From Cyanophora paradoxa CCMP329 (lineage: Eukaryota > Plantae > Glaucophyta): DNA of 64,000 nt. The position numbers and the translations under genes were made by a program. The stretch spans positions 186,001-250,000 of the forward strand of contig QPMI01000457.1 of NCBI GenBank assembly GCA_004431415.1. The letters are read 5' to 3'. Within the stretch, counting starts at the first letter, position 1. The number at the start of each line of letters is the position of its first letter. The notes under the pieces are model-generated. The model was not told the origin of the DNA. It did not search any database and saw nothing but the letters and a program-made list of their open reading frames with translations. Positions 28,526 to 62,798 of the stretch are shown piece after piece.

Positions 28526-28894
28526 TCAATCATCTTCTTCCACGATGATCAATGTTTTTTCTGTAGAAGTTCTCCTATGCCTTGGTGAATCGTGTCTTTG
28601 GGCATTCCTGAAATTGAACGGGAGCAGAGTCAAATTTTGCATTGGAGTTCTAGGGATCGCATGCCCATGGGTCCCAGGCCACGAGCTCCGTCTATCAGTA
28701 GGAACTAGCCAGGGCACAGGGGAGTCTGTTCGAGATTGTTCACAGGGCGACACTGACCGAGAAGTGTTTGGAGTTCCATCAGTGCCGTCGGTTTCTGAGA
28801 TATTTAGATCAATAGTTGTTTCGCAGCAGCTGCTCTTGAGATTGCTTGTGATGTGAAGGTGAAACATGTCAAGACATCTCCTTATCAAATCCAT
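28526..28894 (-). CDS. Small viral hypothetical protein, homolog of 63556-63828
   Basis: MDLIRRCLDMFHLHITSNLKSSCCET vs MDIIRKFFEMFSLHVVSNCHSGCCET. Confidence 0.75.
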   Translation of the reverse strand: MDLIRRCLDMFHLHITSNLKSSCCETTIDLNISETDGTDGTPNTSRSVSPCEQSRTDSPVPWLVPTDRRSSWPGTHGHAIPRTPMQNLTLLPFNFRNAQRHDSPRHRRTSTEKTLIIVEEDD

Positions 28895-28930
28895 TCATAG
28901 TACTTGTTGCACATAAAAGAATGAAGATCT

Positions 28931-29767
28931 CTAAGGATTAGGATCGGCCCCGCCGATTGGGAAATAACGATTCGAATTGAACGTTTCCCCGTACTTGACA
29001 CCATTTGCAATCACATCTGTTCTTTCGGCAAATAGAATAATTTTGTAGGCCCCCATGAGCGTTGCCCTCACAATAAACTGGTAATCTTCAACCCCAACGG
29101 GAGCAGAGTGGAAAGCAACACCAAAATTGTCGATCGGATTGATTAAAACAGCTATGTTTGGCCGGAGAGCATCATTCCTCCTACAAAGGAAATAGATATC
29201 AGGGGGAATATCAACAACACTCTTGAAGTGATTTCCGAGTGGCTGAACGTTATCTACGATCGATGTTTGCTCATTTATATTTAGTGTGAATAGTTTGATG
29301 ATATAAGGCAAATTCATACCAGGAACATACGTTCTGATTCTTTCATTAGTGTTTTCAGGGTTAGGTTGATCATTAACAAATATAGGGGCACAAGCAGCTC
29401 CGCCCACTCTAAGGCCATCCCCAATATAAGCACCTCCAAATCTGCAGGTGACGGCACCTGTTCTTGATTCAAAGGTAAAATTACTGACCTTATTAGCATC
29501 GTCATAGCTATCAGGATCCCCATAATTTGAATTAAAGTTTGCATTGGTTACAAGGAGACTTGTTGTTTTTATTGTCCCATTATTTTTGTCGCATCGAACC
29601 TCGCCTAAACGTAATATGTGATTCTCCCGGAAGGTGTTTAGAGTTGGCTGCTGCTCTGTGGACTCTAGGCCGGGCACATCATCTGAAACTGCATGCTGCA
29701 GGACGTGGTTGGCTGGAGCGGCGAGGGTCAACGATGGAACTACTATTCTTTCAACAGCTTCAGCCAT
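28931..29767 (-). CDS. Viral structural-type protein (ELRxDK N-terminal family), ortholog of 47734-48570
   Basis: Strong full-length similarity to 47734-48570 (LAAPANHVLQHA, EVRCDKNNG, GGAYIGDGLRVGGA). Confidence 0.8.
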   Translation of the reverse strand: MAEAVERIVVPSLTLAAPANHVLQHAVSDDVPGLESTEQQPTLNTFRENHILRLGEVRCDKNNGTIKTTSLLVTNANFNSNYGDPDSYDDANKVSNFTFESRTGAVTCRFGGAYIGDGLRVGGAACAPIFVNDQPNPENTNERIRTYVPGMNLPYIIKLFTLNINEQTSIVDNVQPLGNHFKSVVDIPPDIYFLCRRNDALRPNIAVLINPIDNFGVAFHSAPVGVEDYQFIVRATLMGAYKIILFAERTDVIANGVKYGETFNSNRYFPIGGADPNP

Positions 29768-29829
29768 TATTGTTATGACTTAAAGAAAATGAATGCATAA
29801 AAAAGCAAGGAACAAGGAAGGCTAGACAG

Positions 29830-30357
29830 ATGGAGATCGAAATTCCCAATGGAGCGATTGCTATTCCTATCTATGGACGGAATGGAATAGTAGCACATTC
29901 TTTCATATTAGCAGCTGATGCTGAACTAATTAATGAGAAACGCTGGTCGCTTGACACTAGTGGTTATGCTAAATGTCACATCTATGTAAACGGAAAGAGG
30001 ACAACAATGAAAATGCATCAGTTAATTGTAGGATCAGTCAATCCAGGGTTTTCTATTGATCACATCAACTGCAATAAACTTGATAACAGACGTGAAAATC
30101 TTCGCCTGGCTACAAACTATCAGCAAACATTGAATCAATTGCTTCGAAAAAATAATTCGAGTGGTTTTGTGGGGGTGAGCTTTAATAAGTCTAATAACAA
30201 ATGGAAAGCTCAATTTAGTATAAATGAACGCGTGAAACACATTGGCTATTTCTCTACTGCGGAAGCTGCTGCTAAAGCCAGGGATACCTATGCTCTTGCA
30301 CACACCAGCGAGACCGATCGTCCATTTATCCGCCTAAATTTTCCAGCTGAAGCATAA
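29830..30357 (+). CDS. HNH endonuclease with AP2 DNA-binding domain (free-standing homing endonuclease)
   Basis: DHINCNKLDNRRENLR; SGFVGVSF..KWKAQ..HIGYFSTAEAAAKARD. Confidence 0.9.
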   Translation: MEIEIPNGAIAIPIYGRNGIVAHSFILAADAELINEKRWSLDTSGYAKCHIYVNGKRTTMKMHQLIVGSVNPGFSIDHINCNKLDNRRENLRLATNYQQTLNQLLRKNNSSGFVGVSFNKSNNKWKAQFSINERVKHIGYFSTAEAAAKARDTYALAHTSETDRPFIRLNFPAEA

Positions 30358-30367
30358 ACGTTCTTTA

Positions 30368-30955
30368 TCATGGTATAGGATTTTCCGGATTGTTCTCCTC
30401 ATACATGTTATTCAGTGCTGGATCAAAGTTTAATCCTCTGGTGGCCACAGATGCAGCCACATCGGAGCGATAGCCGATGATAAGGATAGAGTATCTGCCT
30501 ATAGAGGTAGCATATAAATCGAAAAGATGCCTTGTATTGATATTACGAACTACGTATCCCCGTCCAGCATGTCCTAAACCTTGTACAAAGAACGTGTAAA
30601 CATGGCCTATTTGATCATTTTGATCTTGACAGAGCGATTGAAGTGCCTTGGGGATTTCTCTGTTTGAAAGCAACCTCTCTCCATCGAGACCATTTGGTGT
30701 GCTTGAATTAGCTATTGTAATTTCAACTTCTACTAGAGCTTGTGCATAGGGGAGGTCACAGCAGGGTACATACATGCGAACTCGTTTACGATTTTCAGCA
30801 TTCTCTAATGAAAAGTCTGGGACATCATTGATGGCAATCGATGATGATAGCCCTCCACTAACTCGGCAAGCACCGGTAATAGCCGCACCACCGGAGCGCA
30901 CAGTGAGGGCAGCAGTGTTTTGATCATAGTTTATGCTTCGAAGGTCAACACTATA
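30368..30955 (-). pseudogene. 5'-truncated ortholog of 48594-49439 (ELRxDK family)
   Basis: YSVDLRSINYDQNTAALTVRSGGA aligns with YSVALKALDFDKNTAAVTVRSGGA; similarity stops exactly at the 30955 hairpin. Confidence 0.8.
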
Positions 30956-31025
30956 CACATATAAAAACAAATATTATTATCCCTCGCGTTCCGCTCAGGA
31001 TAATAATATTTGTTTTTATATGTGT
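30955..31025. repeat. Perfect 28-bp hairpin (15-nt loop), putative left terminus of element B
   Basis: acacatataaaaacaaatattattatcc-ctcgcgttccgctca-ggataataatatttgtttttatatgtgt. Confidence 0.9.
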
Positions 31026-31280
31026 GTTACTATAAGTTATATAAAGATATTAGCATTTTTATCATAGTGTATATCGATATTTGATATGTATTTTATTGGT
31101 AATTCGTAAATGAATCAATAAAAATAATATAAGTATCGTGGAATCTTTGTAAAATATGTATATAAATTATGTAATCGCGATATATCCGATATGTGTTTAC
31201 GATGCGCGATGTGTATCTAAAACAACTACAATGTGCTGCTTGGGACGCGCCTCATATAGTCATGTGTATCACCTACGTAG

Positions 31281-31977
31281 CTTCGATAGGGTGGGGCGGG
31301 TGGGGTGAGGTGGGGCATTTTTTTGAATTCCCTAAAATAATTCCCCCTCAAAAATGTTTGGTCAAAAAAGACCCCACCCAACCCCACTTACCCCACCCTG
31401 TATCTTTTATTATATTTATGATTGATTTCAATGTGATTAATGTATAAAGTATAGAGATTATGTATGTTAAATTAATACCGGGTGGGGTGTGAGGGTGGGG
31501 TGTGAAGGTGGTATCAGCCAACCATTTAATAATTACGATATTGAACCGACGTGATACCGACGAGATATGATATATTCAGATCGTATTAGAACGGCGCGAT
31601 CACTAAGAAAAACAAGTATCATGTGCTGTATATTTCGCGATCGCTATATCAATAGGGTGGGGTGAGAAAGTGGGGCACCACCCTCACTGTATACACTGTG
31701 ATATGATCGCAATCCCGATGAAGCCTACTACGATATCGTGCAGACTTCGATAGGGTGGGGTAAGTGGGGTGAGGTGGGGCATTTTTTTGAATCCCTTAAA
31801 TTTTTGGGGGGTCAAATATTTTTGGGCAAAAAAGACCCCACCCAACCCCACCCTCCCCACCCTGTATTACTTATCGATACACCTCACTTATTCAATGTAT
31901 AAACTCTATTAAATTAGATAGAAAATATGTATAGAAATAACGTGATTGTAGTATAGGGTGGGGTGTAGGGTGGGGGC
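31281..31977. repeat. GGGTGGGG iterons and duplicated stem-loop (31281-31402 ~ 31745-31866), ori-like
   Basis: Repeated tagggtgggg..gtggggcatttttt and aaaaagaccccacccaaccccac in AT-rich non-coding DNA. Confidence 0.75.
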
Positions 31978-32118
31978 AAAATGCAAACTGAATCAGTGCG
32001 ATATAATTTAGTGAACACGAATTGGATACGAAAGGGATAAGTGCGCCCCGCCCACTATGCAAGATACATGCCTTTCTTATGCATGATCTATGAAAAATAA
32101 CAATAAACCCCTTTCTCT

Positions 32119-32400
32119 TTACATAGGAGCACTCACAGGAATTTCGCTTGCCTTTCGAACAGTCCCCCTTGCAAACGCTTGCTCTACAATCGCCTCCTTT
32201 GTGAGTGGAATCGGAATTCCAGCGGCAATACACGATTTAACTTCTTTGTCCACAATCTCATCAATCGCGATTCTCGCCCGATTATGAGCCGCATTATCGA
32301 TCCAATCCTGAACAGAGTAGGCACAGTATTCCATTCCCAGCTTTTCAGTCTCAGTTAGAATCACTTGGTAGATGTTTGACATTCTTTTAACATTAGACAA
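32119..32400 (-). CDS. Small phage-type tail-fibre-associated protein (putative chaperone)
   Basis: LTETEKLGMEY.A..VQDWIDNAAHNRARIAIDEIV..IP.TKEAIV..AFARG resembles small proteins I recall next to C1q fibres in aquatic phages. Confidence 0.6.
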   Translation of the reverse strand: MSNVKRMSNIYQVILTETEKLGMEYCAYSVQDWIDNAAHNRARIAIDEIVDKEVKSCIAAGIPIPLTKEAIVEQAFARGTVRKASEIPVSAPM

Positions 32401-32409
32401 TAAAATATT

Positions 32410-33411
32410 CTAATATACATCAATGAGTTCACCTGCCCATAAATTGAAATTTGTGTTAGTGCCATATATAGTTCCTGATTCTAATTGAAGCCTCGCATTG
32501 TCATTTGCATTCATTTTCACTATGCAATTGAAACCGAATTGATAATGGGTTCCTGCACTTGGGCTTATGTAGCCAATAATATTAGCTCCAACGTTGTTTA
32601 TTCGCAAGGTGACATGATGAGTTCCTGTGGTGTTGCTCATTAAAGTTACCATGAACCTGTAATATCCGTTGACAGGAGCAGTAAATACCCCGTTTGAAAC
32701 CGATGTTGATGATATTATAACATTTGCCCAGTTCGTGAGGGCAAAAGGTCCTGACGGGGATCCATTATATCCATAACAAAATTTTATATGGTTTGGGAGT
32801 GAGAGATAAGAGTTTGTTCCATTAATTGATAATCCATTCCAGGTGAAGGTTCCAGCATTTGTTATGTTGGTATGAGATGCTGTGAATGTAGAAGCAATCT
32901 TTGCCCCAGCTCTCTTGATCTCAAAATTGTCACTTGCACCCACAGTATCAATGGAATTCGTTTTAATTCCACCACTTGCTGTGAGCAACCCAGTAAACCC
33001 GCCAGTGGTTCCATTCACAGCCCCATAGGAAGTCGCTGTAACTGTCCCATTCACACTCAGTCCAGTCCCAATCCATGCCCCGCCACTGTAAACTTGAAAA
33101 GCCGCCGAATTCCTATCAGCCGGATTAAAAGCCGTTTTGGAATCCTGTTGACCTTCATATAGATTTTCTTTGGTGACCAGCCCCGAAGATATTGCGGGTC
33201 GATTCGATACGATCAGTTCAGTAGCTTTAACGATTCCACCAGCCTTGTCAGCTCTGAGTTCTTTGACTCTGAGAATGGAGGTCTCATTGAAAGAATCGGT
33301 TTTCGCTGTCTCAGTCGAAGGGAATGACTCACTTAGATCATATATAGTGTGTTGCACGTTGTGGACAGCACTGGCTGATAAGGAAAACACAGGGGTAAAC
33401 ACAGTCGACAT
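32410..33411 (-). CDS. ELRxDK-family fibre with C-terminal C1q/TNF-like domain
   Basis: N-term SILRVKELRADKAGGIVK; C-term NGVFTAPVNGYYRF...IVKMNAND...WAGELI (C1q). Confidence 0.8.
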   Translation of the reverse strand: MSTVFTPVFSLSASAVHNVQHTIYDLSESFPSTETAKTDSFNETSILRVKELRADKAGGIVKATELIVSNRPAISSGLVTKENLYEGQQDSKTAFNPADRNSAAFQVYSGGAWIGTGLSVNGTVTATSYGAVNGTTGGFTGLLTASGGIKTNSIDTVGASDNFEIKRAGAKIASTFTASHTNITNAGTFTWNGLSINGTNSYLSLPNHIKFCYGYNGSPSGPFALTNWANVIISSTSVSNGVFTAPVNGYYRFMVTLMSNTTGTHHVTLRINNVGANIIGYISPSAGTHYQFGFNCIVKMNANDNARLQLESGTIYGTNTNFNLWAGELIDVY

Positions 33412-33466
33412 CTTTTGATTGTTCTTTATTATTACGTGAGAATATTATTATTATTACGTGAGAATA

Positions 33467-36400
33467 TTATGCTACCATCTTTCCTGTTGCTATATAACTC
33501 ATTTGATAGTGGAAAAGTCCGATGCTTTCATTGAATTCATAATTTGCCGAAACTGTTACATTAACAGTAAAGGTTGTTGTTGAGGAACTTGTGACACCAT
33601 ATACCAATACATATGAACCACCATTATACCCTTGTTTCAGATTGAGAACCACTTCTGGGGCTTGCGCAAATGCTTTTGGGAATGTGACAACCTGTGAAAA
33701 TCCCCAATGACCCGGACCTACGATTGTTAAAGAATTTGAAAAACTCCCTGTCTGTATATACTGGTCTTTATTGACCCGTTGTTCTGAAACAAGTTTTGCA
33801 ATCTTTGTATTATCTGTTTCATCCATTGCATAATATGCTCTTGCGTAAGCATTTCCCCGACATAATAACGTTTTATCGTATATATTTGCGGAATTGTGGA
33901 AAAACCATTGTTCTAAATAAAGTGGTGCATCTGGTTGGTAAATTTGACCGGATCCCACATACATGGTATTATTTGCTGTGATCGTGTTCGCTACAAATGG
34001 GTCTAAGGTTGGGAAATCCGTGATTTCCGATTTTGTGTGAGTATGGGCGAAATCTGTTATATTTGCCTTTGTGTGACTATGTGCGAAATCTGTGATATCT
34101 GCTTTAAAATGAGAGTGAGGACCGACAGTCGTAGAAGCTGTTGGCTTCCCGTATATATTATTCCAATGGAGGAAACCACTGTGTGACGATATAGCGGGGT
34201 TTTTGCTCCAACCAACAGTAATCGGACCTGGAAGATAAATTCTTCCTATTTGTCCTTGAACACCAACTTTAACAAGTCCTTCACAATTTATTGCAGCAAA
34301 CTGTTTGAAATCTCTTACAGGATTATATGCAGGAGCATAGGCATTTACTCGTAAACGAGTATAAGTATTGGTTGATGGTTCAATTCCAACAACATCAAAG
34401 TATCTACTGTCATACTGACACGTATAATAGATATAACATGATTTCATTCCTGTTGGAACATTCCAATACATCTTACAGCTACTACAATCATCATCACCAT
34501 CAATCCATGTGTTTGCCCAAGTGCTTGTGTCACCTACAAGTGGTTGCCCAACATAATCTCTCCAATCTCCTGTGCGGTCTGTGGAAATACCACTTGTAGC
34601 GTCAAAATCAGTTGGTGAAGTGTATGTTGGTGTATTTATCAGATCATCATAGTTTCCAGTTGTTGCCACAGTCGCAAATGTCGGGAAGTCTGTAATTTGA
34701 GACTTTGTGTGGGTATGGGCAAAATCTGTTATTTCTGACTTTGTGTGAGTGTGTGAAAAATCTGTAATCTCTGACTTTGTGTGAGTGTGTAGATCAGGTG
34801 CGAAGGTTAATGGTCGAACATTGTGAACATTGGGTAATTCAATGCGACTAATTGGAGTGTTTGGATCTAATACATATTCAGCACCAAGGTGGACAACAGG
34901 AAATGTTTGATCATTCGGAGTAGTAACAAAGAAATTAGAAGCATGCACATCACCTGCAATTGTTCCACCTGTTAGTGGTAAATAATCATGATCGTGTGAA
35001 TCAGGTGGATAGGTCGATGGGGGATTGACAATATGCTCCCAAAAATGCTTGTGAACATTGGGTAATTCAAGACGACTAAATGGGGTGTTTGGATCTAAAA
35101 CATATTCAGCACCAAGGTGGACAACAGGAAATGTTTGATCATGTGGAGTGTCGACAAAGAAATTCGGGGCATGCACATCACCTGTAAGAGTCCCACCTGT
35201 TAGAGGTAAATAATTCCCAAGAGCCGACGTTAATTCGGTATCTGTTACATAATCTTCAAGAATTGCTGCAAGTTCTGTATCATCTACATAGTTTTTGCTT
35301 TCGAGGTAATCATCTGTTACCACACCTGAAAGGGTTGTATTGTGTAAGTTTTTCGCCGCCATTCTTTGATTGACTTCTAAGGCGCCTCCTGATGTCGTTT
35401 TAATCCACGCCATCTCACATTTACCGTGATCATCTGTGGGTTGTCCCACAACAGGAAGATAGTTTACAACTTTCTCCCTTGTGAACACAATCTTAGGTCT
35501 TGCTCCATCATATGCGCTTTGATCCGTTACATTTACTTGAATTGCTGCTGAAAAATCCGCTTCTTGTCCTATTTCTCCTGGGTGATAATTCGTAACATAG
35601 ATACTGGGGAAAGTATCATTTACTCCTACATTGAAATCGCCACTATACACTCCGTTTACGATTGGATCCCTGGGTAATCTTACAGCAAGAGTTCCCACCA
35701 TCGGTGTGCCTGTTTCACCTGTAAACGACCCATTCAGACTAACATAATGATCATTCAAAAATAGCCTTTCAGGTGTATTAATCGATTGGTAAAGTGTGAC
35801 CCCATTAAAAACATTTCCGATTGCATTCAATTGCGCAAAAACTGGCTGCTCATCTATTTCCTCCCATGGGTGCCTGTGGTTACTATTGGTAATCTCTGAA
35901 TAATCATGAGTGTGTTTTCCCGGTGGGAAGGTCGATGGGGATTTGTGATATCTTCCCATAAATGCTTATGGGCGAAATCTGTAATATCTGCTTTTGTGTG
36001 TTTTTGCTTTGCTAACCAATCTAAAACAACATTCGATGTCGGGTGATTTGGTAGGTTTGCTTCAATCTTCACAGTGAGATAATCGACTATTACATTACTT
36101 CCATTAATATTACTTGCCCATAGGTTACTGCTGTAAATGTTACTTGCATAAATGTTACTGCTATAAATATTACTTGTAACTGTAAGGTTTGATGCAATTG
36201 TAAGATTAGATGAAATAACACCACCTTTGAGAGACAAGTAATCATGAGTGTGTGGATCAGGTGGGAAGGTTAATGGTCGATTGGTGATATGCTCCCACAA
36301 ATGCTCGTGAGAACTGGGTGGATAGGTTAATGGGGCATTGGTGATATGTTCCCACAAATGCTTGTGAGAATTGGGTAGTTCGATTCGACTAATTGGGGTG

Positions 36401-36884
36401 TTGTCGCCCAATATAAATTCGGCACCTGTATGCACGACCGGGTTTCTTTGGATATACATATTTGATGCACCTATTACAGGTGCTATTATGGGCACATCCG
36501 AATTAACGAGATTGCAAGTGATGGAGAAAATGGTTTTAGGGGCGAATAGATTGCAATCAAAGGTCACAGTAGCTGGATCAATAGTAGGATCGACGTTTGA
36601 ACAGATCTGAAACATCCACCCACCCACACAGTTGCAATTTAGATTTCGAAAGACTGTTCCCGCCATTGCATCCACATAGCCAATCCATTTGCTATGTCAT
36701 ATATGTGACCAAACTCGTAACCAAAAATGTCATTCCACAGGTTGGAAGCCATAGCTCCCATCACATACCCTTTTAGATCTACTATCAGGTCATTGGATTC
36801 ACTGGGTATATTGGCATGGGTTATATAAAAATTATTATCCAATACCGCATTCTTTATTGTCGTTTCTACTATGGGTTCAGTCAT
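33467..36884 (-). CDS. Giant fibre/spike protein of element B (three ORFs joined by 2 probable frameshift errors)
   Basis: HTHTKSEITDF and HxWExI phage tail repeats, YLPLTGGTLTG motifs, SNIY repeats, C-terminal VTFPKAFAQAPEVVL (gp53/H-lectin-like). Frame changes at ~36675 and ~35937 (G4 vs G5 in the paralogous repeat). Confidence 0.8.
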
Positions 36885-36921
36885 TATACTCTATTATGGA
36901 ATACTACAAAAATTAAGGTTG

Positions 36922-37872
36922 TTACATAACGTTTGGAACATGTTCATATATTCTCCCTTCTCGCTGTGCCATTTCCGCCATAAAGTCTCTATCATTGTTC
37001 ATCGTTTGCTCTGCCAATTCTTGTGCTCGTGATTTTTTGGGTGCTGCCCTATTTGCTGGTGGTCGGTCAGTCCTCACAACACTAAGACCATGCCCCTCGG
37101 CTGATCTCACCTCTAAGCCCACATCTCCTTCGGCTGTTTGGGTCACATTAAGCTCTGGTGTTGAGTATTTATTACCTGCTCCTGCAATGGTTCTGTCTAT
37201 GCATGCACAACACAAAGCTCGGAATTTGTATGCAAGCACAAGCCCAAGAGCACCGAGAATCGGCAAGAGAATCATAAGCACTAACGTTCCTGGATTTGTT
37301 CCCGGTGCCCCGACTGGATTTGTAGGATTCGTGGGATTATTAGGTGTTGTAGGATCAGTGGTAGGTGGGGTCTGTGGGTCTGACTCATCAGGAGGCAAGT
37401 TAGGATCTGAATCTGGGGGCGGTTCCGTCGACCCTGCTAATGAGGTCGGCGCTGTGTATGCATTTGCAAACACGATGGGAGCCGTCGCTGGATTTCCTGT
37501 GGAGGATCCTGAGATTGCACCATAGGTATCTGCGAGATACTTGTATAATTCCTGTGTCACAGGTGGATTGCTCACAGATCGACACACCCAAATATTGCAC
37601 GTAGTGTCATAGACTGTGTCCCTGATAAAGGGCGGTAGAGCCGTCCCACTGAATGACTCAAAGAGTCCATTTCGCGATAGCAACCTATGTCCTGTATCAC
37701 AATTTCCACCCTCAAAATATTTGGTAGCCGAAATCGCACCTTGCACATAAATATTGCATGTCGAATGCAATCCAATGTTATTTAGGTTAGGAGTGTATCT
37801 GTCATCAAGCCGGACAGTGCACACCCATGGGGAAGCGGTTTTTATATATTTCTTATCGCCTGCTGTGATCAC
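36922..37872 (-). CDS. Viral membrane-anchored protein (Pro/Thr linker, TM helix, Cys cluster); may be the frameshifted C-terminus of the upstream fibre gene
   Basis: PPTTDPTTPNNPTNP then LVLMILLPILGALGLVLAYKFRALCCAC; GTG start overlapping the upstream stop. Confidence 0.65.
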   Translation of the reverse strand: MITAGDKKYIKTASPWVCTVRLDDRYTPNLNNIGLHSTCNIYVQGAISATKYFEGGNCDTGHRLLSRNGLFESFSGTALPPFIRDTVYDTTCNIWVCRSVSNPPVTQELYKYLADTYGAISGSSTGNPATAPIVFANAYTAPTSLAGSTEPPPDSDPNLPPDESDPQTPPTTDPTTPNNPTNPTNPVGAPGTNPGTLVLMILLPILGALGLVLAYKFRALCCACIDRTIAGAGNKYSTPELNVTQTAEGDVGLEVRSAEGHGLSVVRTDRPPANRAAPKKSRAQELAEQTMNNDRDFMAEMAQREGRIYEHVPNVM

Positions 37873-38696
37873 ATCAGTGTTTGGGTGGCTTTCGATTTGG
37901 TAGCAATAGACTCATATTTGTAAGAGTAATAAACTAAGAGACCATCTGTGGAGGATGTAAAATAAAAGAAGTCTCTCATGAAGTCTGTGGATCCAAAGAA
38001 GTCAGCATTGGTCGATGTTAGGGTGACTTTGGGATAGCTCATGCTGACAGTCTCAGAAGGATATGGAATATAAGAGGTGTAATAGCGATTTAACAGATAA
38101 TAGTAAAATCCATCTGAGACATTCGAATGAGTGGGCAAGGTGACTGTTAAGGTCTTACTGCGATCCTCAAACGTTTTCTGTATGACAATGTTGCAAGTAT
38201 TAATATATCGAGAATCGAAAAAGTAATTATTTGTGACTCTATTATCGATCAAAGTCGCATTGGTTCCATTAAATACGAAATTCTGCCCATTTATTCTCGT
38301 AGTATGGAGGTCAGTCACATCGAGAGGATACCTAATTTTCAAGCGATCTTCGGGGTCGAATCGTGGAATAGACCCAGTTGCCTTCCAACTGATAGTAAAG
38401 GGAGGAGAAAGGGACACAGGTGGGATCGCTGAAAGATTAAATTTCGCAAAATACAACCCAACAGGATATGCTGTAAGAGCATATGTCACTGTTGCATTTC
38501 CTACAAGTGTAAAGCCGGTGGTTGTAATGTTTGTCGCAACAAATGGGGAGTAGCCGGCTGGTGCATTGTTAATAGAGGTGGTCGACCCATTATTGACCAC
38601 ATACAAATTCGTGTCTGTTATTTCAATAGTAGGAGGGGAAACAAATGGTGTCTCAAATGTGAAATTAAAATTCGCTGGAACCCCTGCAAGATATCT

Positions 38697-40843
38697 TTTT
38701 TTGCAAAAGCCCAACCGGGCAATGTTCGTATTAAGGACAACAACCGCCGCCCCGTCGGTGACGTCGACCGGGGGGGCGCCTAGGCTAGCGCAAATGCTCT
38801 GCGGCATAGAAGGAAGACGTCCTGCTATCTTATCCTAGCTGTGAGCTATCGATCTACAGCTTTAGGAGGGCCTGATGCGTTGGTGTCCTTGGCCCTGTGG
38901 AAGAGAGGGGGGAGGGGGAGGCGAGGCGCACGGGGTGCTGGGGTCGGCGGGGGGCGAGGCGTAGGGAGGGGGAGAAGGGCAGGGAGTGGGGTACACGGAG
39001 CGCTGGAGGGTGGCGGGGGTGAGGCGCTGGGTCGGGGAGCTGGGGGCGGGCGGGGCGGGCGGGCGGGGAGGGTGACGGGCCGGGAGCGGGGCGGGGCGCC
39101 GAGGGTCGGGGCAGGGCGCTAGAGGGCGGCGGGGGGCGGGCGCTGGGGGCGGCGGGGGCGGGGCGCTGGGGGCCGGGGCAAAGGGCGGGGGCTAAGGGGT
39201 GGAGGAGCACTGGGGGCGGGGCCCTGGGGAAGCGGCGGCGGAAGGGCGCTGGGGGGCGGAGGGCGCCGGGGCGACGGGGGAAGGGCACGGGGAGCAGCGG
39301 GGCACTAGGGCGGCGGGGCGCTGAGAGGGGTGACGTGGGAAGGGCACTGGGGGGGCGGCGGGCGCTGGGGGCGACGGGGGAAGGGCGCGAGGAGCGGCGG
39401 GGCGCTAGGGCGGCGGGGCACTTAGAGGGTGGCGGGGGCGGGGCGCTGGAGCCGGAGGGCGGGGGCGGGGCGCTGGAGCTGGGGGCGGGGCGGGGCGCTG
39501 GAGCCGGAGGGCGGGGCGGGGCGCTGGAGCTGGGGGGCGGGCGGGGCGCTGGAGCTGGGGCGGGGGCGGGGCGCTGGAGCCGGAGGGCGGGGGCGGGGCG
39601 CTGGAGCTGGGGGCGGGGCGGGGCGCTGGAGCTGGGGGCGGGGCGGGGCGCTGGAGCCGGAGGGCGGGGGCGGGCGCTGGAGCCGGAGGGCGGGGCGGGC
39701 GTGGAGCTGGGGGCGGGGCGGGCGCTGGAGCTGGGGGCGGGGCGGGGCGCTGGAGCCGGAGGGCGGGGGCGGGGCGCTGGAGCCGGAGGGCGGGGCGGGG
39801 CGCTGGAGCCGGAGGGCGGGGGCGGGCGCTGGAGCCGGAGGGCGGGGGCGGGGCGCTGGAGCCGGAGGGCGGGGCGGGGCGCTGGAGCTGGGGCGGGGCG
39901 GGGCGCTGGAGCTGGGGGCGGGGCGGGGCGCTGGAGCCGGAGGGCGGGGGCGGGGCGCTGGAGCTGGGGGCGGGGGCGGGGCGCTGGAGCTGGGGGCGGG
40001 GCGGGGCGCTGGAGCTGGGGGGCGGGGGCGGGGCGCTGGAGCCGGAGGGCGGGGCGGGGCGCTGGAGCCGGAGGGCGGGGGCGGGGCGCTGGAGCCGGAG
40101 GGCGGGGGCGGGGCGCTGAAGCGGGAGGGCAGGGGCCGCTTGAAGGCCGGGTCCGGGCGGGCCTCGTCTGGCTCGGACTGCGGACGGGGGGCAGGGGGTC
40201 CGAGCGTACACGCTTCTGTACCGGCCTCGGGGGGGAGGAGTCCAGGTGGGCGCCCTTTGGGCCCAGTCCGGGGAAAGGGGGCGGGGGCGTGGGCCCGCGG
40301 GGCCTGGGCGCCGGCGAGCGTCGCGCAAGCACGGTCTACGTCGTTCGCCGGGCATGGCGGCGACATCCGGTGTGTCGTCCGTGGATGATCGGCTCATGTC
40401 TGCGGTGTGACAGGCAGTGAGTGAGTGTCAGCATCGGGGCGCAATGCGCGGGGACTGGGCGGCAGTTCAGTTGCTTAAGAGCTCTTATCGTCTATCGGAG
40501 AGGCAGGGCGATTGCTTTGCGCTCCGCGCAGGGCGCAGGTGGGGTCCGGGGGTCCGTGGAATTCAAAAAAGATGACGCGGCGAGGTTGGCGGGGCTGCCT
40601 GGCGCTCCGGGGGCGGGCTACCGACTTCGGCGGTTGCGATTGGTGATGATGTGCTCGTGTCGGCTGTCCGTGCACGCCCGGCTGGTCTATCTAGCGCGTT
40701 CTGGCTACGGGGGTCGGGTGGAGCTGGCGCGCGACTTTCCGAGCAGCTTGACACGCAGCGTTATCAGGAACCCACGGGTGGGAAACCTGGCCCGCTGCGC
40801 CGCCGTAATCGTCGCGCTACCGTAAATTTTCCGTACCCCCCGG
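38697..40843 (-). mobile_element. Non-autonomous VNTR-containing retroposon (SINE/SVA-like), 2147 bp, 17-bp TSD, short poly(A)
   Basis: TSD acccctgcaagatatct at 38680-38696 and 40844-40860; A6-7 tail on minus strand; GC-rich host-like DNA in AT-rich viral gene. Confidence 0.85.
39432..40118. repeat. GC-rich minisatellite (ggggcgctggagccggagggcg / ggggcgctggagctgggggcg, ~24-27-bp units)
   Basis: More than 20 tandem variant units visible. Confidence 0.95.
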
Positions 40844-42417
40844 ACCCCTGCAAGATATCTATATGTTGTTGCTGATATCTCGGATGCCTGGAATACTTTG
40901 CTTCCACTCCGCACTACATTACTTGTGTCTTTCACATTGTGGTATGATATGCTGGGAGTCGGGGAGAGCACCAACGAAATAGCATCTGGTAAATCAGACT
41001 TTGTTATATACAGCTCTTTAAGATACTCCTTTCTAAAAGGCGCGGTCAGATCTCCAATAGTAGCCGATGAACCTGCGACTACAATATTACAGGTGTTTGC
41101 ACTCAAAGAGTAAACTGTGTTCCACCTTAAAGAATTCGCCCCAAGATCGAAATTCTGTGAGAAGGGCACGATATTGCTACCTTGTAAATCTCGGTAAACC
41201 TTTACTCTGGGTTTGCTATCGAATTCAGGGGTGATATAATTGATGGTAAGAGTGAAACTAATAGTAGCTTCGGAAGTCAATAAGTTGTTTCGGATGATAA
41301 GTAAATTGTATGTCTCGTTAATGACAAACGAAACCTGAAACCCTGTGGAGGTGACATTTTGGATAAACGCTTTATTAGATTCATTATTGTTAGTGATAGG
41401 ATTATAATAAGTTGTGTGATCCACCAATGAAACAGTGGGTATACTCTCCAAACCTGTGACACCCAACTGATCCCAAGTGAATGTATATGTAGGTTTGCCT
41501 ACATAAGCGACATAGACCCCATTTGCGAGCTGCTGAGGGTATCCCTCGACAGTGTAGGTCTCAGTCCGCGAAACTGAGCGGGAAAGGTTGCTATTAAAGT
41601 CGTTGTAGCTGATCAGAGCTCTCTCATCAGTGGGTAAATCACTGGGTCGGACTGAGTGATTGAAAGGCAAGATTATGTTACTTGTTTTTGAGGTCGTGCT
41701 ATAAAGATTGGTTGAGTGCAAGTCATCAAACCACCCATCATAGGCATACACATTGAGCCATTTCTTAATAGCATTAGTATTAGATTGACCAAGATTGAAT
41801 TGATGATCGAGCAAAGGCACCAAATCGCGGGATAAATACATAATTGCATCCGAAATGATGATTGCACCTGTTAGAACGGCGAGCCCTGCCGTGTTTGCTG
41901 CGGTAGCAATTGATAAACCCGAGATTTCGAGATCCTGGGCTGCATCTCGCTCATTTCTGGTGAATCGCTCACTATAAAACTCCTTTACAAGGTCGACCCC
42001 CATGACATCAATTAAATGCGGTCGAGTGAGGGTGATATTGCTTGTGATGCTCTGCGAATATTTAACAGGATCCCATTCGACGACAGCTTTCAGTGGGATG
42101 GGGCGGGCTTTATTGATTTCGTGCTGGAAGGTTCGCACAGTGGGGAAATTGCTGCCAAAGAATGCAACAGGTGAGCCCCCATGATAGATAACGAGGGCTG
42201 AGTTATCAGTGCCATAGGTAAAAGGGAGATTGCTGGTGATATCGATATATTCAAGGTTGCTCTGATTTAATAGAAAGTCTTTTACCACAAGGTTCGAAGA
42301 TATGGTCACATTGGAAGCGGTAATGTTACTGCTGAGCTCGAAACCGTCATCCAAATACAAGGTTTCCCGAGTGATAAAGGGGAGATTCGTGATACTCATT
42401 TGTAATATAAGATTATT

Positions 42418-43392
42418 TTAACCCGATAGCACCTCTAATATAAAGCTGTGATTAACGCCATTAAAGTCGACTACATTATTGTAGGCGTCGAGCCATTTAA
42501 TTGTGAGGGTGTCTATGTCATAAGCCTGATCGTGGGAATTAAAGAACTCAACTGTATCGATTCTGCGGAATGTCAGGTAGTAAACAAACGATCCCAAGGG
42601 GCTGGTTAGTGGGATCTTAGCGAGGTTTGCATTTCCGCCCTCATCTGTCTTTGCTGCTACCATATACTTATCGTAAAAGGGAGCAAACTCTTTAATTTGT
42701 AGGTAAACATAGGGGGTTGGATTTAGATTAATCGCATTCGGGAAGGTCACTGCATGTTCGAGAGGGAATGGAAGCACAGATATTCCGGCGGGGTGTTTTG
42801 TTTTGCCCTCATAGGCTTGTAGAAATGAGTATTTTGGATTGCTGGGTGTGAGGGGTAAATAGTCTACCGTGAGATGCTCTGAACCCTCACCAACGGGAAT
42901 TGTTTGATACATATCCCCTTTGATCATTCCATGGAACCTTGCAAAGTCGTCATGTGCACAGCTCAGTGTGAGGGGAATGCTCGAATAAAAAGTAATTTTC
43001 ATTGTCGCTGGATTATAGAGCCACTTATAGTAAACAGTGGACGCCTCATTCTTTACAGGGTCAAAGTCATTAAAACTGCCCGAATAGCCAAAGTTCTTAT
43101 TACCATATCCCCAAATCGCGGGGGTGTAGTTTCCTATATCAGGGAAAGGGGAAAAGGTGATGCTGTTCGTCATTCCCTGTATGGTCACGCCTCTGGAATT
43201 ATCGGTGACAGCATAAATCGTGTTTGGGAGCTCGGCGCTCGCAATGCGCACCCCTTTTACGTTCAGAAGTCGCTGAGAAAGCTTTACTGTATATTCTCCC
43301 GGGTGCCCTGCACTGCGCTCAATAGAATCGATATTAACATTGACCCTCGTAAGCTTGCCATTATAGAAATCGTTGACTGGCTTCCGAATCAT
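42418..43392 (-). CDS. Minor capsid (penton)-like protein 1, element B
   Basis: NIDSIER...YTVKL...NVKGVRIASAELPNT; C-term LTIKWLD..NNVVDFNGVNHSFILEV, typical of PLV/NCLDV pentons. Confidence 0.8.
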   Translation of the reverse strand: MIRKPVNDFYNGKLTRVNVNIDSIERSAGHPGEYTVKLSQRLLNVKGVRIASAELPNTIYAVTDNSRGVTIQGMTNSITFSPFPDIGNYTPAIWGYGNKNFGYSGSFNDFDPVKNEASTVYYKWLYNPATMKITFYSSIPLTLSCAHDDFARFHGMIKGDMYQTIPVGEGSEHLTVDYLPLTPSNPKYSFLQAYEGKTKHPAGISVLPFPLEHAVTFPNAINLNPTPYVYLQIKEFAPFYDKYMVAAKTDEGGNANLAKIPLTSPLGSFVYYLTFRRIDTVEFFNSHDQAYDIDTLTIKWLDAYNNVVDFNGVNHSFILEVLSG

Positions 43393-43419
43393 TTTTATTT
43401 CCTATTAATAAAGAATAAA

Positions 43420-44706
43420 ATGCGCGAGTATCTCAGCATCAGTAGCCGTGATCGATCAGAGGGCTCGGCTCATTCCTATAAGGTGACCCTTCCAAAGCAA
43501 TACCACAATGTGAAGAGCATCGCTGTGCGACAGATCGAGTTTTCCAACACGATTCCCACGGTTCCAAGCCCTCAATTCTATACTGAAATCGGGGAGACGA
43601 AAGCCGATGATGCTAATACGATTTTCATATCATTTCTTTACCGATTTTCGAGCGGTCAGCTGAATGGTGCCACTCAGGAAATCAGAGATTCACAGGCAAC
43701 TGCAATATACGAAGCATACAAAGCGATCGATTTCGGCGACCAAGGCAACTATATACCGCCTGATTACCTAAACACTTTCAGAAGATATACCCGATACAGG
43801 GACGTAGCAATTACGATCCCTCCGGGCACATACTCCACTGGAACCGACCTTGCCACTGCAATCGATAACATCTTAACGAAAAATGGAACTGGCAACTACA
43901 TCAAGGATATGATCGACACAAAAATTAATCCAAGCTACGCATCGACAGGGGGAACCTTTTACCCGGTGGTGAGATGTCGTTTTGAGAGCACATTAAATGC
44001 TATATGCTTTTATTCGAGTGATTATGTCTACATAGCTTTCACGAAATATGGTCCGAGTAATGCCACTGGGTCTACTGCGAATGAAAGAAAGGTGCTCGCC
44101 TATCGCACGATGACTCTTCTCGGGTTTACATCGATCAGAGAGAATATAGTAATAGATCAATACAACGGATCGGGCTACACAGCCTTTGCTGGGAGTGGTG
44201 TCGTTTACTCAGCTGGTGATGCATTCCGCAATTATAATTCGACGGCTCTGGTCTTAGGCATAGCCGGAGGCACTGCCCCTGATTATACACCGGATAATGC
44301 AATAGTTTTAAAGATCACAGAGCCGGACTGCTCGCTTTTTACGACATGCACCGAGGCTACTAATGGATTCCTCGCTAAGATCCCGATTTCGAAAGGCACA
44401 GCCTATGCTGATGCTGAGCTAATTAATTATGGGGCGGATGCTTTCACGAAATACTTTAACACGCGCCTTTCGTTTGATAGTTTAACTGTGCAAATTCTCA
44501 CGGAGAGCGGTTATAGGTATTTCCTCGGAAGCTGCGAGCACACATTCATTTTGGAAATTACTATGGGAGTGGATGAGCCCGACGACGATTTACAGCGCAT
44601 TGTTAATAAGGGATTCGCGAAAATGCTATATGAGGACTACCCCCATTGCGGCAATTTAACGAATGCGTTGAGCGGGGTGGCTGTAAAAAATAATCCGTTC
44701 TTCTAA
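43420..44706 (+). CDS. Minor capsid (penton)-like protein 2, element B
   Basis: MREYLSISSRDRS..SYKVTLPKQYHNVKSIAV..IEFSNT; C-term LTVQILTESG..HTFILEI; true ATG 43420. Confidence 0.8.
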   Translation: MREYLSISSRDRSEGSAHSYKVTLPKQYHNVKSIAVRQIEFSNTIPTVPSPQFYTEIGETKADDANTIFISFLYRFSSGQLNGATQEIRDSQATAIYEAYKAIDFGDQGNYIPPDYLNTFRRYTRYRDVAITIPPGTYSTGTDLATAIDNILTKNGTGNYIKDMIDTKINPSYASTGGTFYPVVRCRFESTLNAICFYSSDYVYIAFTKYGPSNATGSTANERKVLAYRTMTLLGFTSIRENIVIDQYNGSGYTAFAGSGVVYSAGDAFRNYNSTALVLGIAGGTAPDYTPDNAIVLKITEPDCSLFTTCTEATNGFLAKIPISKGTAYADAELINYGADAFTKYFNTRLSFDSLTVQILTESGYRYFLGSCEHTFILEITMGVDEPDDDLQRIVNKGFAKMLYEDYPHCGNLTNALSGVAVKNNPFF

Positions 44707-44739
44707 AATAAATTTCTCAGCGGAAGATAAAAACGAAAT

Positions 44740-45654
44740 ATGGATCCCACGACCTCGCTTAGCCGCCTCACGCTCAAATCCGTCCTCGAAACCCCGGAGG
44801 ATTACAAGAGCATGCTTTTGGATCGCGGATTTATTGTTGGTGTCGACAAGCAATTCAAGCCTTCTCGTGTTGAGGTGCTCCCAATTGCGGATCCCGGCAA
44901 TCTGTTCTCCTCTACTGGTGCTACCACTCGTGTGGTCTTCTATCTCCCTCGCTACAATTGGTGCAATGGTATTAGCCTCCAAGTTACCATCCCATCGGCG
45001 AAGGCGCTGACTGCCATCGCCAAGACCTCGGCTGACTGCTCGGCTGATCTATTCAATACTGGATTCGTCCGCGGGCTTCCTGGCTCGTTTGTTCAGCGAG
45101 TCAGCATTAAATACGGGTCGTATGAGCAAATTATTCCCGCTGAGCGACTGGTAGATTACGCCTTCCTCGCTAACACTCCGGCTGAATTCGACCAAAAGAA
45201 GCGCAAGCATGGGCTGCATCTCGGACCGAAGGTAGAGGGCGGCAACCAAGCTGGCGGCATTTTTACCATGCGAATTCCAAGCTTCCTCGATGCTGGCGTG
45301 CCCATCGGTGCGCTCCCATCCGAAATCGCGGTCGAAGTATATTTCCAAACCCCTGCGCTTCTCGAAACTGCGGCGGTTCCTGGCGTTTACGCTCAGAATA
45401 ACACGACTGCAATTACTGCTGCCAACTCTACTGATGGCGAGACGACGCTTGCTGTTGCGGCTGCTTTCGGAAATATTAAGACCTTAGCTCACCCTAATGC
45501 CACTGCGATTTTCGATAGTGCGGCTCTCACATCTACACCTGCAATTGCGAATCTGGAAATGACGACCCCTCGTCTTATTATGGATGCTGTTAACATCGAT
45601 GAGGAAACGATGGGCGAAATCATTACTCGTGTTAAGACCTCTGGCATTGCCATC
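44740..45654 (+). pseudogene. Major capsid protein (double jelly-roll type), element B, C-terminally truncated
   Basis: Homologous to 59520-60886 (FYLPRYNWC, FVQRVSIKYGSY, KTSGIAI vs KTTGMAIP); similarity ends at 45654. Confidence 0.8.
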
Positions 45655-45941
45655 ACACATAGTAAAATGCGGAGTTTTAACCCTCGGCTTAATCTTAATT
45701 GATTTTGTTGATATATCTCGTATATTCTATTTCAATCAATCGATAATCTGTGTATATCTTATCGAATATTCATTTATTTCGATTATTTTGTATTCTTTTC
45801 GATATTTTATCGTAAATTTCTCTTATTTTCCGATTAGTCTTACTGAGTCTATCGATAATCTGTATATATTTCCGAATAATATAACTGAATCTCAATTAGA
45901 TCTTGCCTCTGGTTAAAACTCCGCATTTTACTATGTGTGAT
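45652..45941. repeat. Perfect 31-bp inverted repeat, putative left terminus of element C
   Basis: atcacacatagtaaaatgcggagttttaacc (45652-45682) / ggttaaaactccgcattttactatgtgtgat (45911-45941). Confidence 0.9.
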
Positions 45942-46179
45942 TGGTCTAAAAGTTAATTGATTTAATCGATATTATATTCATGTACTTTCTCGATTAAATT
46001 TAATTAAATTTAATTCATTTAATCGGAAATATATCGCTAAACTCGATTAAGATCCATAAAAGATTCATTTGTTAAATAAAACAAATCGATCTCTTATTGA
46101 ATCCAATCGTAATTATACATGAAACTTATATGATTTTATCATTGTTTTGTTGAGTCTAAGGGGGGACCCTTAGGATTTT

Positions 46180-46940
46180 GGGTGTGACAGGTGTGACAGG
46201 TGTGACAGGTCAATCCCAAGGAAAGTCCTAGTGAGAAATTGATTTTTAAAATCCACGGGATAAACCTGTCACACCTGTCACACAAACCATATTCAGTAAG
46301 GACCTCATATATTGTGAAAATCTCAGTGTTAGTTGGTGTTAAATCTTTCAGGCAGCATTTATTTGTCAGGCATTAAATCTATCGATTTTCATAAAGTATT
46401 TTATTTTGGCTAAGTCATTGTTTGGATTAACAATGAAATTTCAATTTTATAAAAGTTTTCTAAAAAGGTGCCTGACAATGCCTGACATACTATATTAGTG
46501 CCTGACAACTATATTATAGTGCCTGACAAACCATATATGGTAATACTATATGTTATAACCTACTTTCTCAGTGTTAGTTGGTGTAGTTGATTCAAATAAT
46601 GCATTTTATACTCTGATTCATTGTTATTTCCTGTGAAATTTGAGTCAACTCAACCCACTTAGTCAACCCTTGCATTGAATTCGTAACAAAATCCATATAC
46701 TTTTACTACTTTTACGATTAATATGAGTCAACCTTGAGTCCACTTAAATAATAGGGTAATAGGGGGAATCAAGGGGAGATGCTGAGTGTTATTGTAAGGA
46801 AATCGAATAGTATTCGAAATACTTGACATTGCTTAATGTAGGGTGCATTCATATTTCGGCTACATCATACAGTAGAATTCTATTGTAACAAAAGCTACTG
46901 TAGAAAGAAAATCATTGTAGAAAGCTATTGTAGGAAAGGA
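46180..46940. repeat. Iteron-like arrays in the non-coding terminal region of C
   Basis: (gtgtgacag)x3 with inverted cctgtcaca x2; tgcctgaca x4; tctcagtgttagttggtgt x2; gagtcaac and attgtagaaag repeats. Confidence 0.75.
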
Positions 46941-47016
46941 TATATTATATCCTTTTTTAACGATTGCCATTGTAATAAAAAAGGTAAATCACCCTGTTTA
47001 TCATTATAGAAACCCA

Positions 47017-47415
47017 TCAAAACGGGAATCTATCATGTTTATGTCTCTCAGTCTTCTCAAATGTTAAGAAATTCATTGTTTTATCGATCTCATCTGCAAC
47101 TGCTTGTGTTTTATGCTGAGCTTCTTTACCACAACTGAATATATCAATTGCTAACATGCCTTCATTGGAATAACAATGAGCTGTGCAATGGCTTTCATCT
47201 AATAGCAGAACCAATGCAAAACCAGGAGGTGATAGTTTGCCATCAAATATCTCACAATGCTTATGAACAATCCTAATACCTTGTCTCAATACTGCTTGTT
47301 CAAGGGTTCCCATAATCCAATTACCTAGGAAGCTAACATGCTCATAACCTGTTGCTATAGCTGATTTAGCCTTGTAATCAAGCATAACATGAAAGCCTCT
47401 GTATTTAGTCTCCAT
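47017..47415 (-). CDS. speD: S-adenosylmethionine decarboxylase proenzyme (prokaryotic SpeD/SpeH class)
   Basis: GFHVMLD...GFALVLLLDESHCTAHCYSNEG..AIDIFSCG with ES autocleavage site. Confidence 0.88.
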   Translation of the reverse strand: METKYRGFHVMLDYKAKSAIATGYEHVSFLGNWIMGTLEQAVLRQGIRIVHKHCEIFDGKLSPPGFALVLLLDESHCTAHCYSNEGMLAIDIFSCGKEAQHKTQAVADEIDKTMNFLTFEKTERHKHDRFPF

Positions 47416-47438
47416 TAAGAATACCTTAGAAAAATTAA

Positions 47439-47711: not shown

Positions 47712-47733
47712 ACTCTATATATAACCAATATTC

Positions 47734-48570: not shown

Positions 48571-48593
48571 TTTACATTAAAGGGATATATCTT

Positions 48594-49439: not shown

Positions 49440-49488
49440 TGCTTCTTTTACTAAGAAGGAAAGAAAAATAATGCGAAATATGCATTTA

Positions 49489-55904: not shown

Positions 55905-55947
55905 GGCTTTTACTATATGGATTTATAAAATTCCTGATAAGTAAAAG

Positions 55948-58426: not shown

Positions 58427-58455
58427 TTTAATATATGAATATAGATAAAAGAAGA

Positions 58456-62770: not shown

Positions 62771-62798
62771 AATTATCTCTCATTCTAATAAAGATACA

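What the first reader, a model, noticed from the sequence alone, without database searches (positions are those of the whole stretch)
30955..45941. Russian-doll Polinton-like viruses: each inner virus starts with an ACACATA hairpin and cuts a structural gene of the outer one
Seen: two viral genes stop dead at perfect inverted repeats. The ELRxDK gene of element A stops at 30955 (28-bp stem) and the MCP of element B at ~45654 (31-bp arms). Both arms begin ACACATA and the mirrored arms end TATGTGTG. Each is followed by ~1.1-1.3 kb of iteron-rich non-coding DNA and then a fresh set of viral genes in the same orientation. The missing gene halves are not on the far side of the hairpins. Inference: these are left termini of a PLV family with foldback ends that integrates into related proviruses, disabling their structural genes. 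That could be virus-versus-virus targeting or a safe-haven provirus cluster. The termini do not resemble the AG-starting TIRs of classic Polintons.
Basis: partly seen in the sequence, partly recalled or inferred. Interest (0 to 1): 0.88.

Follow-up and report, generated by a model that had tools for sequence, protein, structure and literature searches.

The report
Hairpin-tipped algal viruses stacked inside another
Two virus-like elements have each inserted into a gene of another such element in the genome of what is likely a glaucophyte alga, and each begins with a fold-back tip of exactly 28 base pairs that likely serves in copying the viral ends; the stacking is likely a by-product of a virus-crowded genome rather than a targeted attack.

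Summary
Contigs of public runs show that the hairpins are ends of multi-copy families. Family contigs start at 30955 and 45655, the B end has two other flanks, and a variant B end carries six changes mirrored on both arms. The same contigs show both cut genes continuing uninterrupted at family-level depth, so these sites are not hit family-wide. The only full-length capsid homologue found is labelled Cyanophora paradoxa, where a published table counts 366 capsid genes (about 7% of the genome). At that load random insertion gives a doubly nested locus with probability 0.28-1.0, so targeting is not needed. Terminal palindromes and triple virus nesting are both described in a 2026 Halocafeteria preprint. 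New here are looped hairpins of fixed 28-bp geometry, which that screen (gap up to 10 nt) would miss, in a glaucophyte-associated capsid lineage. Right ends, target duplications and the integrase lie beyond the window and were not seen.

The parts
28526..30954 (-). Element A, visible fragment only (2.4 kb, no terminus): small CCET-motif gene 28526-28894, ELR paralogue 28931-29767, HNH-AP2 gene 29830-30357 (+), cut ELR gene
   Evidence: its left edge abuts the 5' end of an L1-like element
30368..30954 (-). 3' part of the cut ELR-family gene of A; 49% identical to residues 110-283 of the paralogue in C
   Evidence: uninterrupted continuation seen as a loose end in 4 of 4 runs
30955..31025 (+). 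Left terminus of element B: perfect 28-bp stem, 15-nt loop; junction ambiguous by 2 bp (AC shared with the target)
   Evidence: family contigs start at 30955 in X1 and X13
31026..32118 (.). Subterminal non-coding DNA of B with GGGTGGGG repeats in direct and inverted arrays
32119..45654 (.). Left gene block of B: 87-aa ORF, ELR-C1q-like gene, fibre-like genes (-), two probable minor-capsid genes (-/+), MCP (+)
   Evidence: fibre and minor-capsid labels are inferred from weak Pfam hits and recalled motifs
38697..40843 (.). Unrelated GC-rich (77%) tandem-repeat insert inside a B gene, bordered by a 17-bp direct repeat (38680 and 40844)
44740..45654 (+). MCP of B, cut after codon 305
   Evidence: 36% to P0007; uninterrupted continuation in 3 of 3 DNA-type runs
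45655..45938 (+). Left terminus of element C: perfect 28-bp stem, 228-nt AT-rich loop with further imperfect pairing
   Evidence: an X16 contig starts at 45655
45939..47016 (.). Subterminal non-coding DNA of C with GGTGTGACA, TGCCTGACA and GAGTCAAC repeats
47017..64000 (.). Left gene block of C, running off the window: SAM decarboxylase, zinc-finger ORF, two ELR genes, two fibre-like genes, patatin, two probable minor-capsid genes, MCP, zinc-finger endonuclease-like gene, ATPase, CCET-motif gene
59520..60886 (+). MCP of C, in two frames with a break near 59.9 kb (decay or long-read indel; not resolved)
   Evidence: C-terminal part 56% to P0007
61976..62770 (+). A32-like packaging ATPase of C
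   Evidence: Pfam PF04665, E 6e-14

Best explanation
The two hairpins are the left ends of two multi-copy Polinton-like virus families that each inserted into a gene of an older relative; they likely integrate without sequence preference, and the 28-bp fold-back tip likely works as the end structure for copying the excised linear genome. Shown: the junctions coincide to the base with the family ends, both stems are 28 bp, the arms stay complementary while their sequence changes, and the intact target alleles exist at family-level depth. Inferred: an integrase encoded further right joins the end to an arbitrary site; insertions into dead, probably methylated viral and transposon DNA cost the host nothing and so pile up; in a released genome the 3' end of the lower strand would pair with the inner arm and offer a primer or a bound origin, next to the 1.1 kb of repeats that would load the viral replication proteins.
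For: Family contigs begin at 30955 (X1 depth 1651, X13 depth 643) and an X16 contig at 45655. The uninterrupted MCP-B allele lies on an X1 contig of depth 1314, like the rest of MCP-B (1315-1644), and is seen in X1, X7 and X13. The uninterrupted A gene is seen in 4 of 4 runs, depth 877 in X1. Two further flanks of the B end are listed, 43% and 62% GC, neither found in the window. The two target sites share no motif that I could see. Both ends share ACACATA-N19-CC, then CTC and G. An X7 variant has 6 changes in 10 positions of the left arm, all mirrored on the right arm (read). Table S4 of PMC10120064 gives 366 MCP genes and an estimated 7.3% of the C. paradoxa assembly. With 366 elements the null model gives 14-75 nested and 0.3-10.6 doubly nested elements, P(at least one doubly nested) 0.28-1.00. 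About 63% of visible C is genes I class as structural, so two structural hits are unremarkable. The locus also holds a YR retrotransposon, an L1-like element and a third, unrelated insert in a B gene. The same end type and priming model are proposed in the Halocafeteria preprint.
Against: Both termini in the window do lie in viral genes, and only three flanks of B and one of C are known, so a moderate preference for viral DNA is not excluded. With 150 elements the null model gives only P 0.03-0.58. No right end, target duplication, integrase or polymerase was seen. No listed contig bridges either junction (tables were cut: 3063 and 201 pieces not shown). Contig depth at the B end is not twice that of MCP-B (X1 1462-1651 vs 1315-1644; X13 553-643 vs 451-509; X7 625 vs about 1050), which a two-ended identical repeat might give, though the tool warns that depth is no copy number. 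An X13 contig runs through loop and inner arm in one orientation at full depth, which argues against the 50:50 loop inversion of simple parvovirus-type resolution. The host is inferred, not shown.
Confidence: 0.65

Rival explanations
1. Virus-versus-virus targeting: the integrase prefers other endogenous viruses (through AT-rich DNA, chromatin or a tethering protein) and so inactivates competitors.
For: 2 of 2 termini in the window cut viral genes, in the same orientation. Viral DNA is about 40% GC against 70-85% in the host genes at 1-6 kb. Targeting of endogenous virophages is known for Ngaro retrotransposons (91% of type 1 in EMALEs; PMC8547959, passages).
Against: The uninterrupted alleles are at family-level depth at both sites. 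One of two other B flanks is 62% GC. The null model needs no preference at 366 elements. The same paper found no sequence-specific integration for EMALEs themselves.
Confidence: 0.12
2. The locus is a pile of truncated left halves, not a complete Russian doll: after insertion, recombination between copies or deletion removed right ends and gene remainders.
For: A has already lost everything left of 28526. B carries an insert, and MCP-C is in two frames.
Against: The junctions are base-exact insertions, which by default leave the remainders on the far side of each element. Nothing beyond 64 kb could be read.
Confidence: 0.15
3. The hairpins are by-products: one arm is copied from the other by snap-back during excision or repair and has no function of its own.
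For: Copying explains perfect complementarity without selection. The Halocafeteria preprint names accidental annealing as its alternative.
Against: The stem is 28 bp in two families whose MCPs are only about 35% identical and in a third variant, with shared bases at both stem ends and loops of very different length. Accidental snap-back would not fix the length.
Confidence: 0.15
4. The hairpin is a recombination or nicking site of an element with only one such end (tyrosine recombinase or rolling-circle type), not part of a terminal inverted repeat.
For: Depth at the B end is about equal to internal depth. The first junction shares 2 bp with the element end.
Against: The second junction shares no such core. 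Loops of 15 and 228 nt are unlike the 6-8-bp spacers of tyrosine-recombinase sites (recalled). Depth of AT-rich contigs is unreliable.
Confidence: 0.08
5. Assembly chimera, or stand-alone MITEs.
For: No listed contig bridges the junctions. All three families are multi-copy.
Against: The joins fall on the first base of each family end with at most 2 bp of shared sequence, whereas mis-joins happen inside shared repeats. Contigs run from the hairpin into subterminal DNA at family depth (X13 30955-31141; X16 45655-46060), so the hairpins do not travel alone.
Confidence: 0.04

Closest known systems
Endogenous virophages (subtypes 1, 2, 5, 6) and PLV subtype 4 of Halocafeteria seosinensis with terminal palindromes (bioRxiv 10.64898/2026.07.28.741278; abstract, sections 7 and 8 and a methods passage read)
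   Same: Palindrome at the very end of an integrated small DNA virus; hairpin priming proposed; 5 PLVs and 9 virophages nested in other viral elements, one three deep; viruses make up 6.2% of the genome and cluster with transposons.
   Different: Their screen allowed a gap of at most 10 nt (52-nt palindromes are shown). Here the stems enclose loops of 15 and 228 nt, have one length in two distant families and a shared ACACATA start. Their TIRs, TSDs and integrases are known; here they are not. The host group differs.
Endogenous MCP clusters of Cyanophora paradoxa in Bellas et al. 2023 (PMC10120064; passages and supplement Tables S2 and S4)
   Same: P0007, 36% identical to MCP-B and 56% to the C-terminal part of MCP-C, has the contig name, length and visible sequence of a protein listed there as an MCP (HHpred 98.5% to an iridovirus MCP). 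The table gives 366 hits in two clusters marked 'new' (272 and 94).
   Different: In the passages and rows I saw the paper counts capsid genes only; its main text has no occurrence of 'Cyanophora', 'nested' or 'palindrom'. The stored supplement is cut, and the Table S5 rows for this species were not seen.
Classic Polintons/Mavericks
   Same: Integrated, AT-rich, capsid- and A32-ATPase-encoding elements with long repeat-rich ends.
   Different: Their ends start AG/AGT (recalled); these start ACACATA and fold back. pPolB, rve integrase and protease were not seen in the visible parts.
Parvovirus/AAV terminal hairpins (recalled, and cited as the analogy in the preprint)
   Same: A 3' end able to pair with an inner arm; a branched loop in C.
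   Different: Double-stranded, integrating, double-jelly-roll virus. No clear sign of 50:50 loop inversion in the B end (indirect).

Membership tests
Polinton-like viruses | Double-jelly-roll major capsid protein | tested here: met
   By homology to P0007, listed as MCP in PMC10120064 Table S2. My own model was poor (pLDDT 36); its best PDB matches were iridovirus, PBCV-1 and mavirus capsids, best E 3e-4, which is weak support only.
Polinton-like viruses | A32-like packaging ATPase | tested here: met
   PF04665, E 6e-14, in C; not visible for A or B
Polinton-like viruses | Minor capsid (penton) protein | tested here: inconclusive
   Four candidate ORFs next to the MCPs; only one weak DUF5901 hit below cut-off, none in PHROGs; the label is recalled
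Polinton-like viruses | 15-40 kb unit with terminal inverted repeats | not testable with these tools
   Only left parts are visible (B 14.7 kb with a 2.1-kb insert, C over 18.3 kb); no whole genome held
Polinton-like viruses | Own integrase (rve or tyrosine recombinase) and replicase | not testable with these tools
   None among the 28 viral-region ORFs scanned; the YR at 17483-18469 belongs to a retrotransposon with RT and RNase H
Classic Polinton/Maverick | AG/AGT-starting termini | tested here: not met
   Ends start ACACATA; the defining motif is recalled
Classic Polinton/Maverick | pPolB plus rve integrase and 5-6-bp target duplication | not testable with these tools
   Right parts are outside the window
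Halocafeteria-type palindromic ends | Inverted repeat of 20 bp or more at the outermost bases, next to the junction | tested here: met
   28-bp perfect stems starting at the junction base
Halocafeteria-type palindromic ends | Gap between arms of at most 10 nt (their screen) | tested here: not met
   Loops of 15 and 228 nt
Halocafeteria-type palindromic ends | Inside a TIR, beside a TSD, linked to non-pPolB replicases | not testable with these tools
   Right ends and replicase not visible
MITE | Short element that travels alone, host sequence resuming on its far side | tested here: not met
   Target genes do not resume; contigs run from hairpin into viral subterminal DNA
AAV-type terminal resolution | Loop in two orientations among copies | tested here: inconclusive
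   X13 contig unbroken through the loop at depth 643; X1 and X7 contigs break at 30998, which a rare inverted copy or a flank ending in AC would also cause

The most novel reading that the evidence does not exclude
A glaucophyte lineage of integrating viruses uses a looped, fixed-length 28-bp terminal hairpin as its replication origin and steers its integration into other endogenous viruses, so that resident viral families knock each other out.
Probability: 0.1. Interest if true: 0.78.

Novelty: new variant of a known kind. Interest (0 to 1): 0.42.

Why it matters
How Polinton-like viruses without a protein-primed polymerase copy their ends is open. One preprint proposes hairpin priming but cannot exclude accidental palindromes. 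A stem of fixed length in two distant families, with mirrored changes in a third variant and loops from 15 to 228 nt, is comparative evidence that the structure is maintained. It also shows that screens limited to gap-free palindromes miss such ends. If the host is the culturable C. paradoxa with hundreds of copies, end structure and target choice can be tested directly. The nesting itself is ordinary.

Tried and rejected
No whole genome was available, so right ends could not be sought. Relatives with flanking DNA: none in IMG/VR with MCP-B, ATPase, the ELR and ATPase alignments or P0007, none for the C-end 20-mer, none in JGI metagenomes. A degenerate hairpin pattern gave 8 viral loci: 7 of 8 had non-complementary arms (2-7 of 19), and the eighth (L008) is a loop-less palindrome in a phage-plasmid with partition-like genes, unrelated. 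MCP-B alone found no homologue among 3283 candidates; MCP-C found none in PDB sequences or PHROGs. Both AlphaFold models were low-confidence (pLDDT 32 and 36). The protein atlas gave no answer. No RNA holder was listed for the stretch; this says nothing on expression. No listed contig bridged a junction, but the tables were cut. Copy numbers from depth (B about 18-29, C about 100) rest on one contig assumed single-copy and are rough. Literature searches showed no paper describing the ends or nesting of these Cyanophora-associated elements; the library lacks most subscription papers, and bioRxiv supplements were closed, so the preprint's palindrome sequences were not seen. PMC12344493 (section 9 and passages) reports methylated repeats and giant-virus insertions in C. 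paradoxa but has no occurrence of 'polinto', 'PLV' or 'capsid'. Rejected: 31-bp arms for C, a MITE reading, a shared target motif, and assigning the YR at 17.5 kb to the viruses.
Full report
Setting. The window runs from GC-rich host genes (70-85% GC at 1-6 kb) through a tyrosine-recombinase retrotransposon (15.5-18.5 kb) and an L1-like element (genes at 21.9-28.3 kb) into 35 kb of viral DNA at about 40% GC. No whole genome is held.

Observation. All-against-window protein comparison shows three gene blocks related by paralogy. The A gene at 30368-30954 matches its paralogue in C (49%) from residue 110 of 302, beginning at base 30955. MCP-B matches MCP-C (33-35%) up to base 45654. Neither remainder is in the window. 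The two hairpins are the longest of 12 perfect inverted repeats found; 30 local shuffles gave at most 14 bp, and 0 of 200 shuffles folded as well in either case. About 1.1 kb of repeat-rich DNA follows each; B has GGGTGGGG arrays, C has GGTGTGACA, TGCCTGACA and GAGTCAAC repeats. B and C then show the same layout: fibre-like genes on the minus strand, a divergent pair of probable minor-capsid genes, and the MCP. A is only a 2.4-kb fragment cut by the L1-like element at 28526, so just the left halves of the proposed doll are visible.

Independent sequence data. Fourteen of 24 listed runs hold half or more of the sampled words of 41.0-50.9 kb. I laid five of them, in two calls of four. At the second junction X1 and X7 list a loose end behind 45654, and X13 has a contig ending there with 37 extra letters. 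Read by hand it continues the MCP frame as PYTDIQFADY, matching PSLDIGFVDA in MCP-C. In X1 it lies on a contig of depth 1314, like the rest of MCP-B. A low-depth X16 contig starts at 45655. At the first junction 4 of 4 runs show a loose end behind 30956 that by hand extends the A gene as SQPITGGVDSY, against QPTNGGPDAY in the paralogue; depth is 877 in X1. Family contigs start at 30955 in X1 and X13, the mark of an end with several neighbours. Two other neighbours are listed, 43% and 62% GC, and neither matches the window at up to 3 mismatches. So the hairpins are element ends, the junctions are base-exact, and the interrupted alleles are not the common form. No listed contig bridges a junction, but 3063 and 201 pieces were not shown.

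The end structure. Both read ACACATA-N19-CC followed by CTC and G, and close with TC, A or T, GG. X7 shows a variant B end with 6 differences in 10 positions of the outer arm, all mirrored on the inner arm, at unchanged length (about 3e-6 by chance if the arms changed independently). Pairing, or copying of one arm from the other, is therefore maintained. In a free linear genome the 3' end of the lower strand would pair with the inner arm and could prime synthesis (inference). Simple parvovirus-type resolution predicts both loop orientations. X13 has one contig through loop and inner arm at full depth, which argues against an even mix, while X1 and X7 break at 30998; this test is indirect. Depth at the B end is not double the MCP-B depth, so identical ends are not established.

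Identity and host. The ATPase is A32-like. A profile of the window's MCP pieces found 1 protein among 7995 candidates scored, P0007 (E 2e-75, 456 aa), labelled Cyanophora paradoxa by its source. It is 36% identical to MCP-B and 56% to the C-terminal part of MCP-C. Table S2 of PMC10120064 lists a protein with the same contig name, length and visible sequence as an MCP (HHpred 98.5%), and Table S4 gives 366 MCP genes in two new clusters, an estimated 7.3% of 99.9 Mb. My folds were poor and add only weak support. The host is thus likely this glaucophyte or a close relative; I did not show it. Environmental relatives exist as single proteins on short contigs (P0001, 62% to an ELR protein; P0005, 63% to the ATPase), but no locus with flanks was found.

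Is nesting more than chance? A sequential random-insertion model with 366 elements of 20-30 kb and 93, 46 or 20 Mb of tolerant host DNA gives 14-75 nested elements and P(at least one doubly nested) of 0.28-1.00. With 150 elements P is 0.03-0.58. About 63% of visible C is genes I class as structural (the ELR genes' role is itself inferred, from one paralogue with a weak C1q hit). An unrelated 2147-bp GC-rich insert with a 17-bp direct repeat splits a third gene in B. PMC12344493 reports that most repeats of C. paradoxa are methylated (passages), which fits a silent, tolerant zone. Targeting is not needed, but four known flanks cannot exclude a moderate bias.

Comparison with what is known. The Halocafeteria preprint (sections 7 and 8) reports terminal palindromes beside target duplications in four virophage subtypes and one PLV subtype, proposes hairpin priming, and finds 14 viruses nested in other viral elements, one three deep. 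Its screen allowed a 10-nt gap and would miss both ends seen here. PMC8547959 (passages) found no sequence-specific integration of EMALEs. PMC12220804 (passages) reports retrotransposons nested in PLVs and no 'hairpin'. Earlier notes of this scan describe similar palindromic tips in other genomes; I did not check them.

Verdict. A real, base-exact double insertion by PLV-like elements with hairpin ends. The nesting is ordinary; the looped 28-bp end is a modest new variant that strengthens the case for a function of such ends. Interest 0.42.

Noticed in passing
window 38697-40843: GC-rich (77%) insert with a long 27-bp-period tandem array, bordered by a 17-bp direct repeat and a T run at its left end, splitting one B gene; looks like a non-LTR retro-insertion.
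   Followed up: partly
window 15478-18469: RT, RNase H and tyrosine recombinase genes of a DIRS/Ngaro-like retrotransposon.
   Followed up: no
window 20800-28525: L1-like element on the minus strand whose 5' end abuts the stop codon of the first viral gene of A; no target duplication or viral remainder was found on its other side.
   Followed up: partly
window 45655-64000: CpG observed/expected is 0.36 in C, against 0.74-1.02 in A and B and about 1.0 in host DNA and retroelements; C may have evolved longer under host methylation.
   Followed up: no
window 19829-19931 and 9194-9245/20710-20761: A 39-nt inverted repeat amid TGAGTCATGA repeats, and a 52-nt imperfect inverted pair 11.5 kb apart that brackets the YR retrotransposon region; possibly ends of another mobile element.
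   Followed up: no
window 28931-29767, 30368-30954, 32410-33411, 47734-49502: Five paralogues of an unnamed protein family with an ELRxDK-like motif; only 4 relatives among 1.84 billion representatives. One carries a weak C1q-like domain, which suggests a fibre-attachment module.
   Followed up: partly
window 47017-47415 and 55948-57504: Element C carries an S-adenosylmethionine decarboxylase and a patatin fused to an F5/8 type C domain.
   Followed up: no
window 31084 and 31256: Low-depth contigs join pieces of B's subterminal DNA to GC-rich sequence: truncated copies elsewhere in the genome.
   Followed up: no
X13 flank before 30955: This flank ends in ACATA, the last five bases of the terminal heptamer; chance or a duplicated tip, unexplained.
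   Followed up: no
L008 10001-10076: Perfect loop-less palindrome at the exact middle of a 20.8-kb phage contig with partition-like genes; likely the hairpin telomere of an N15-like phage-plasmid (label recalled), unrelated to this finding.
   Followed up: partly
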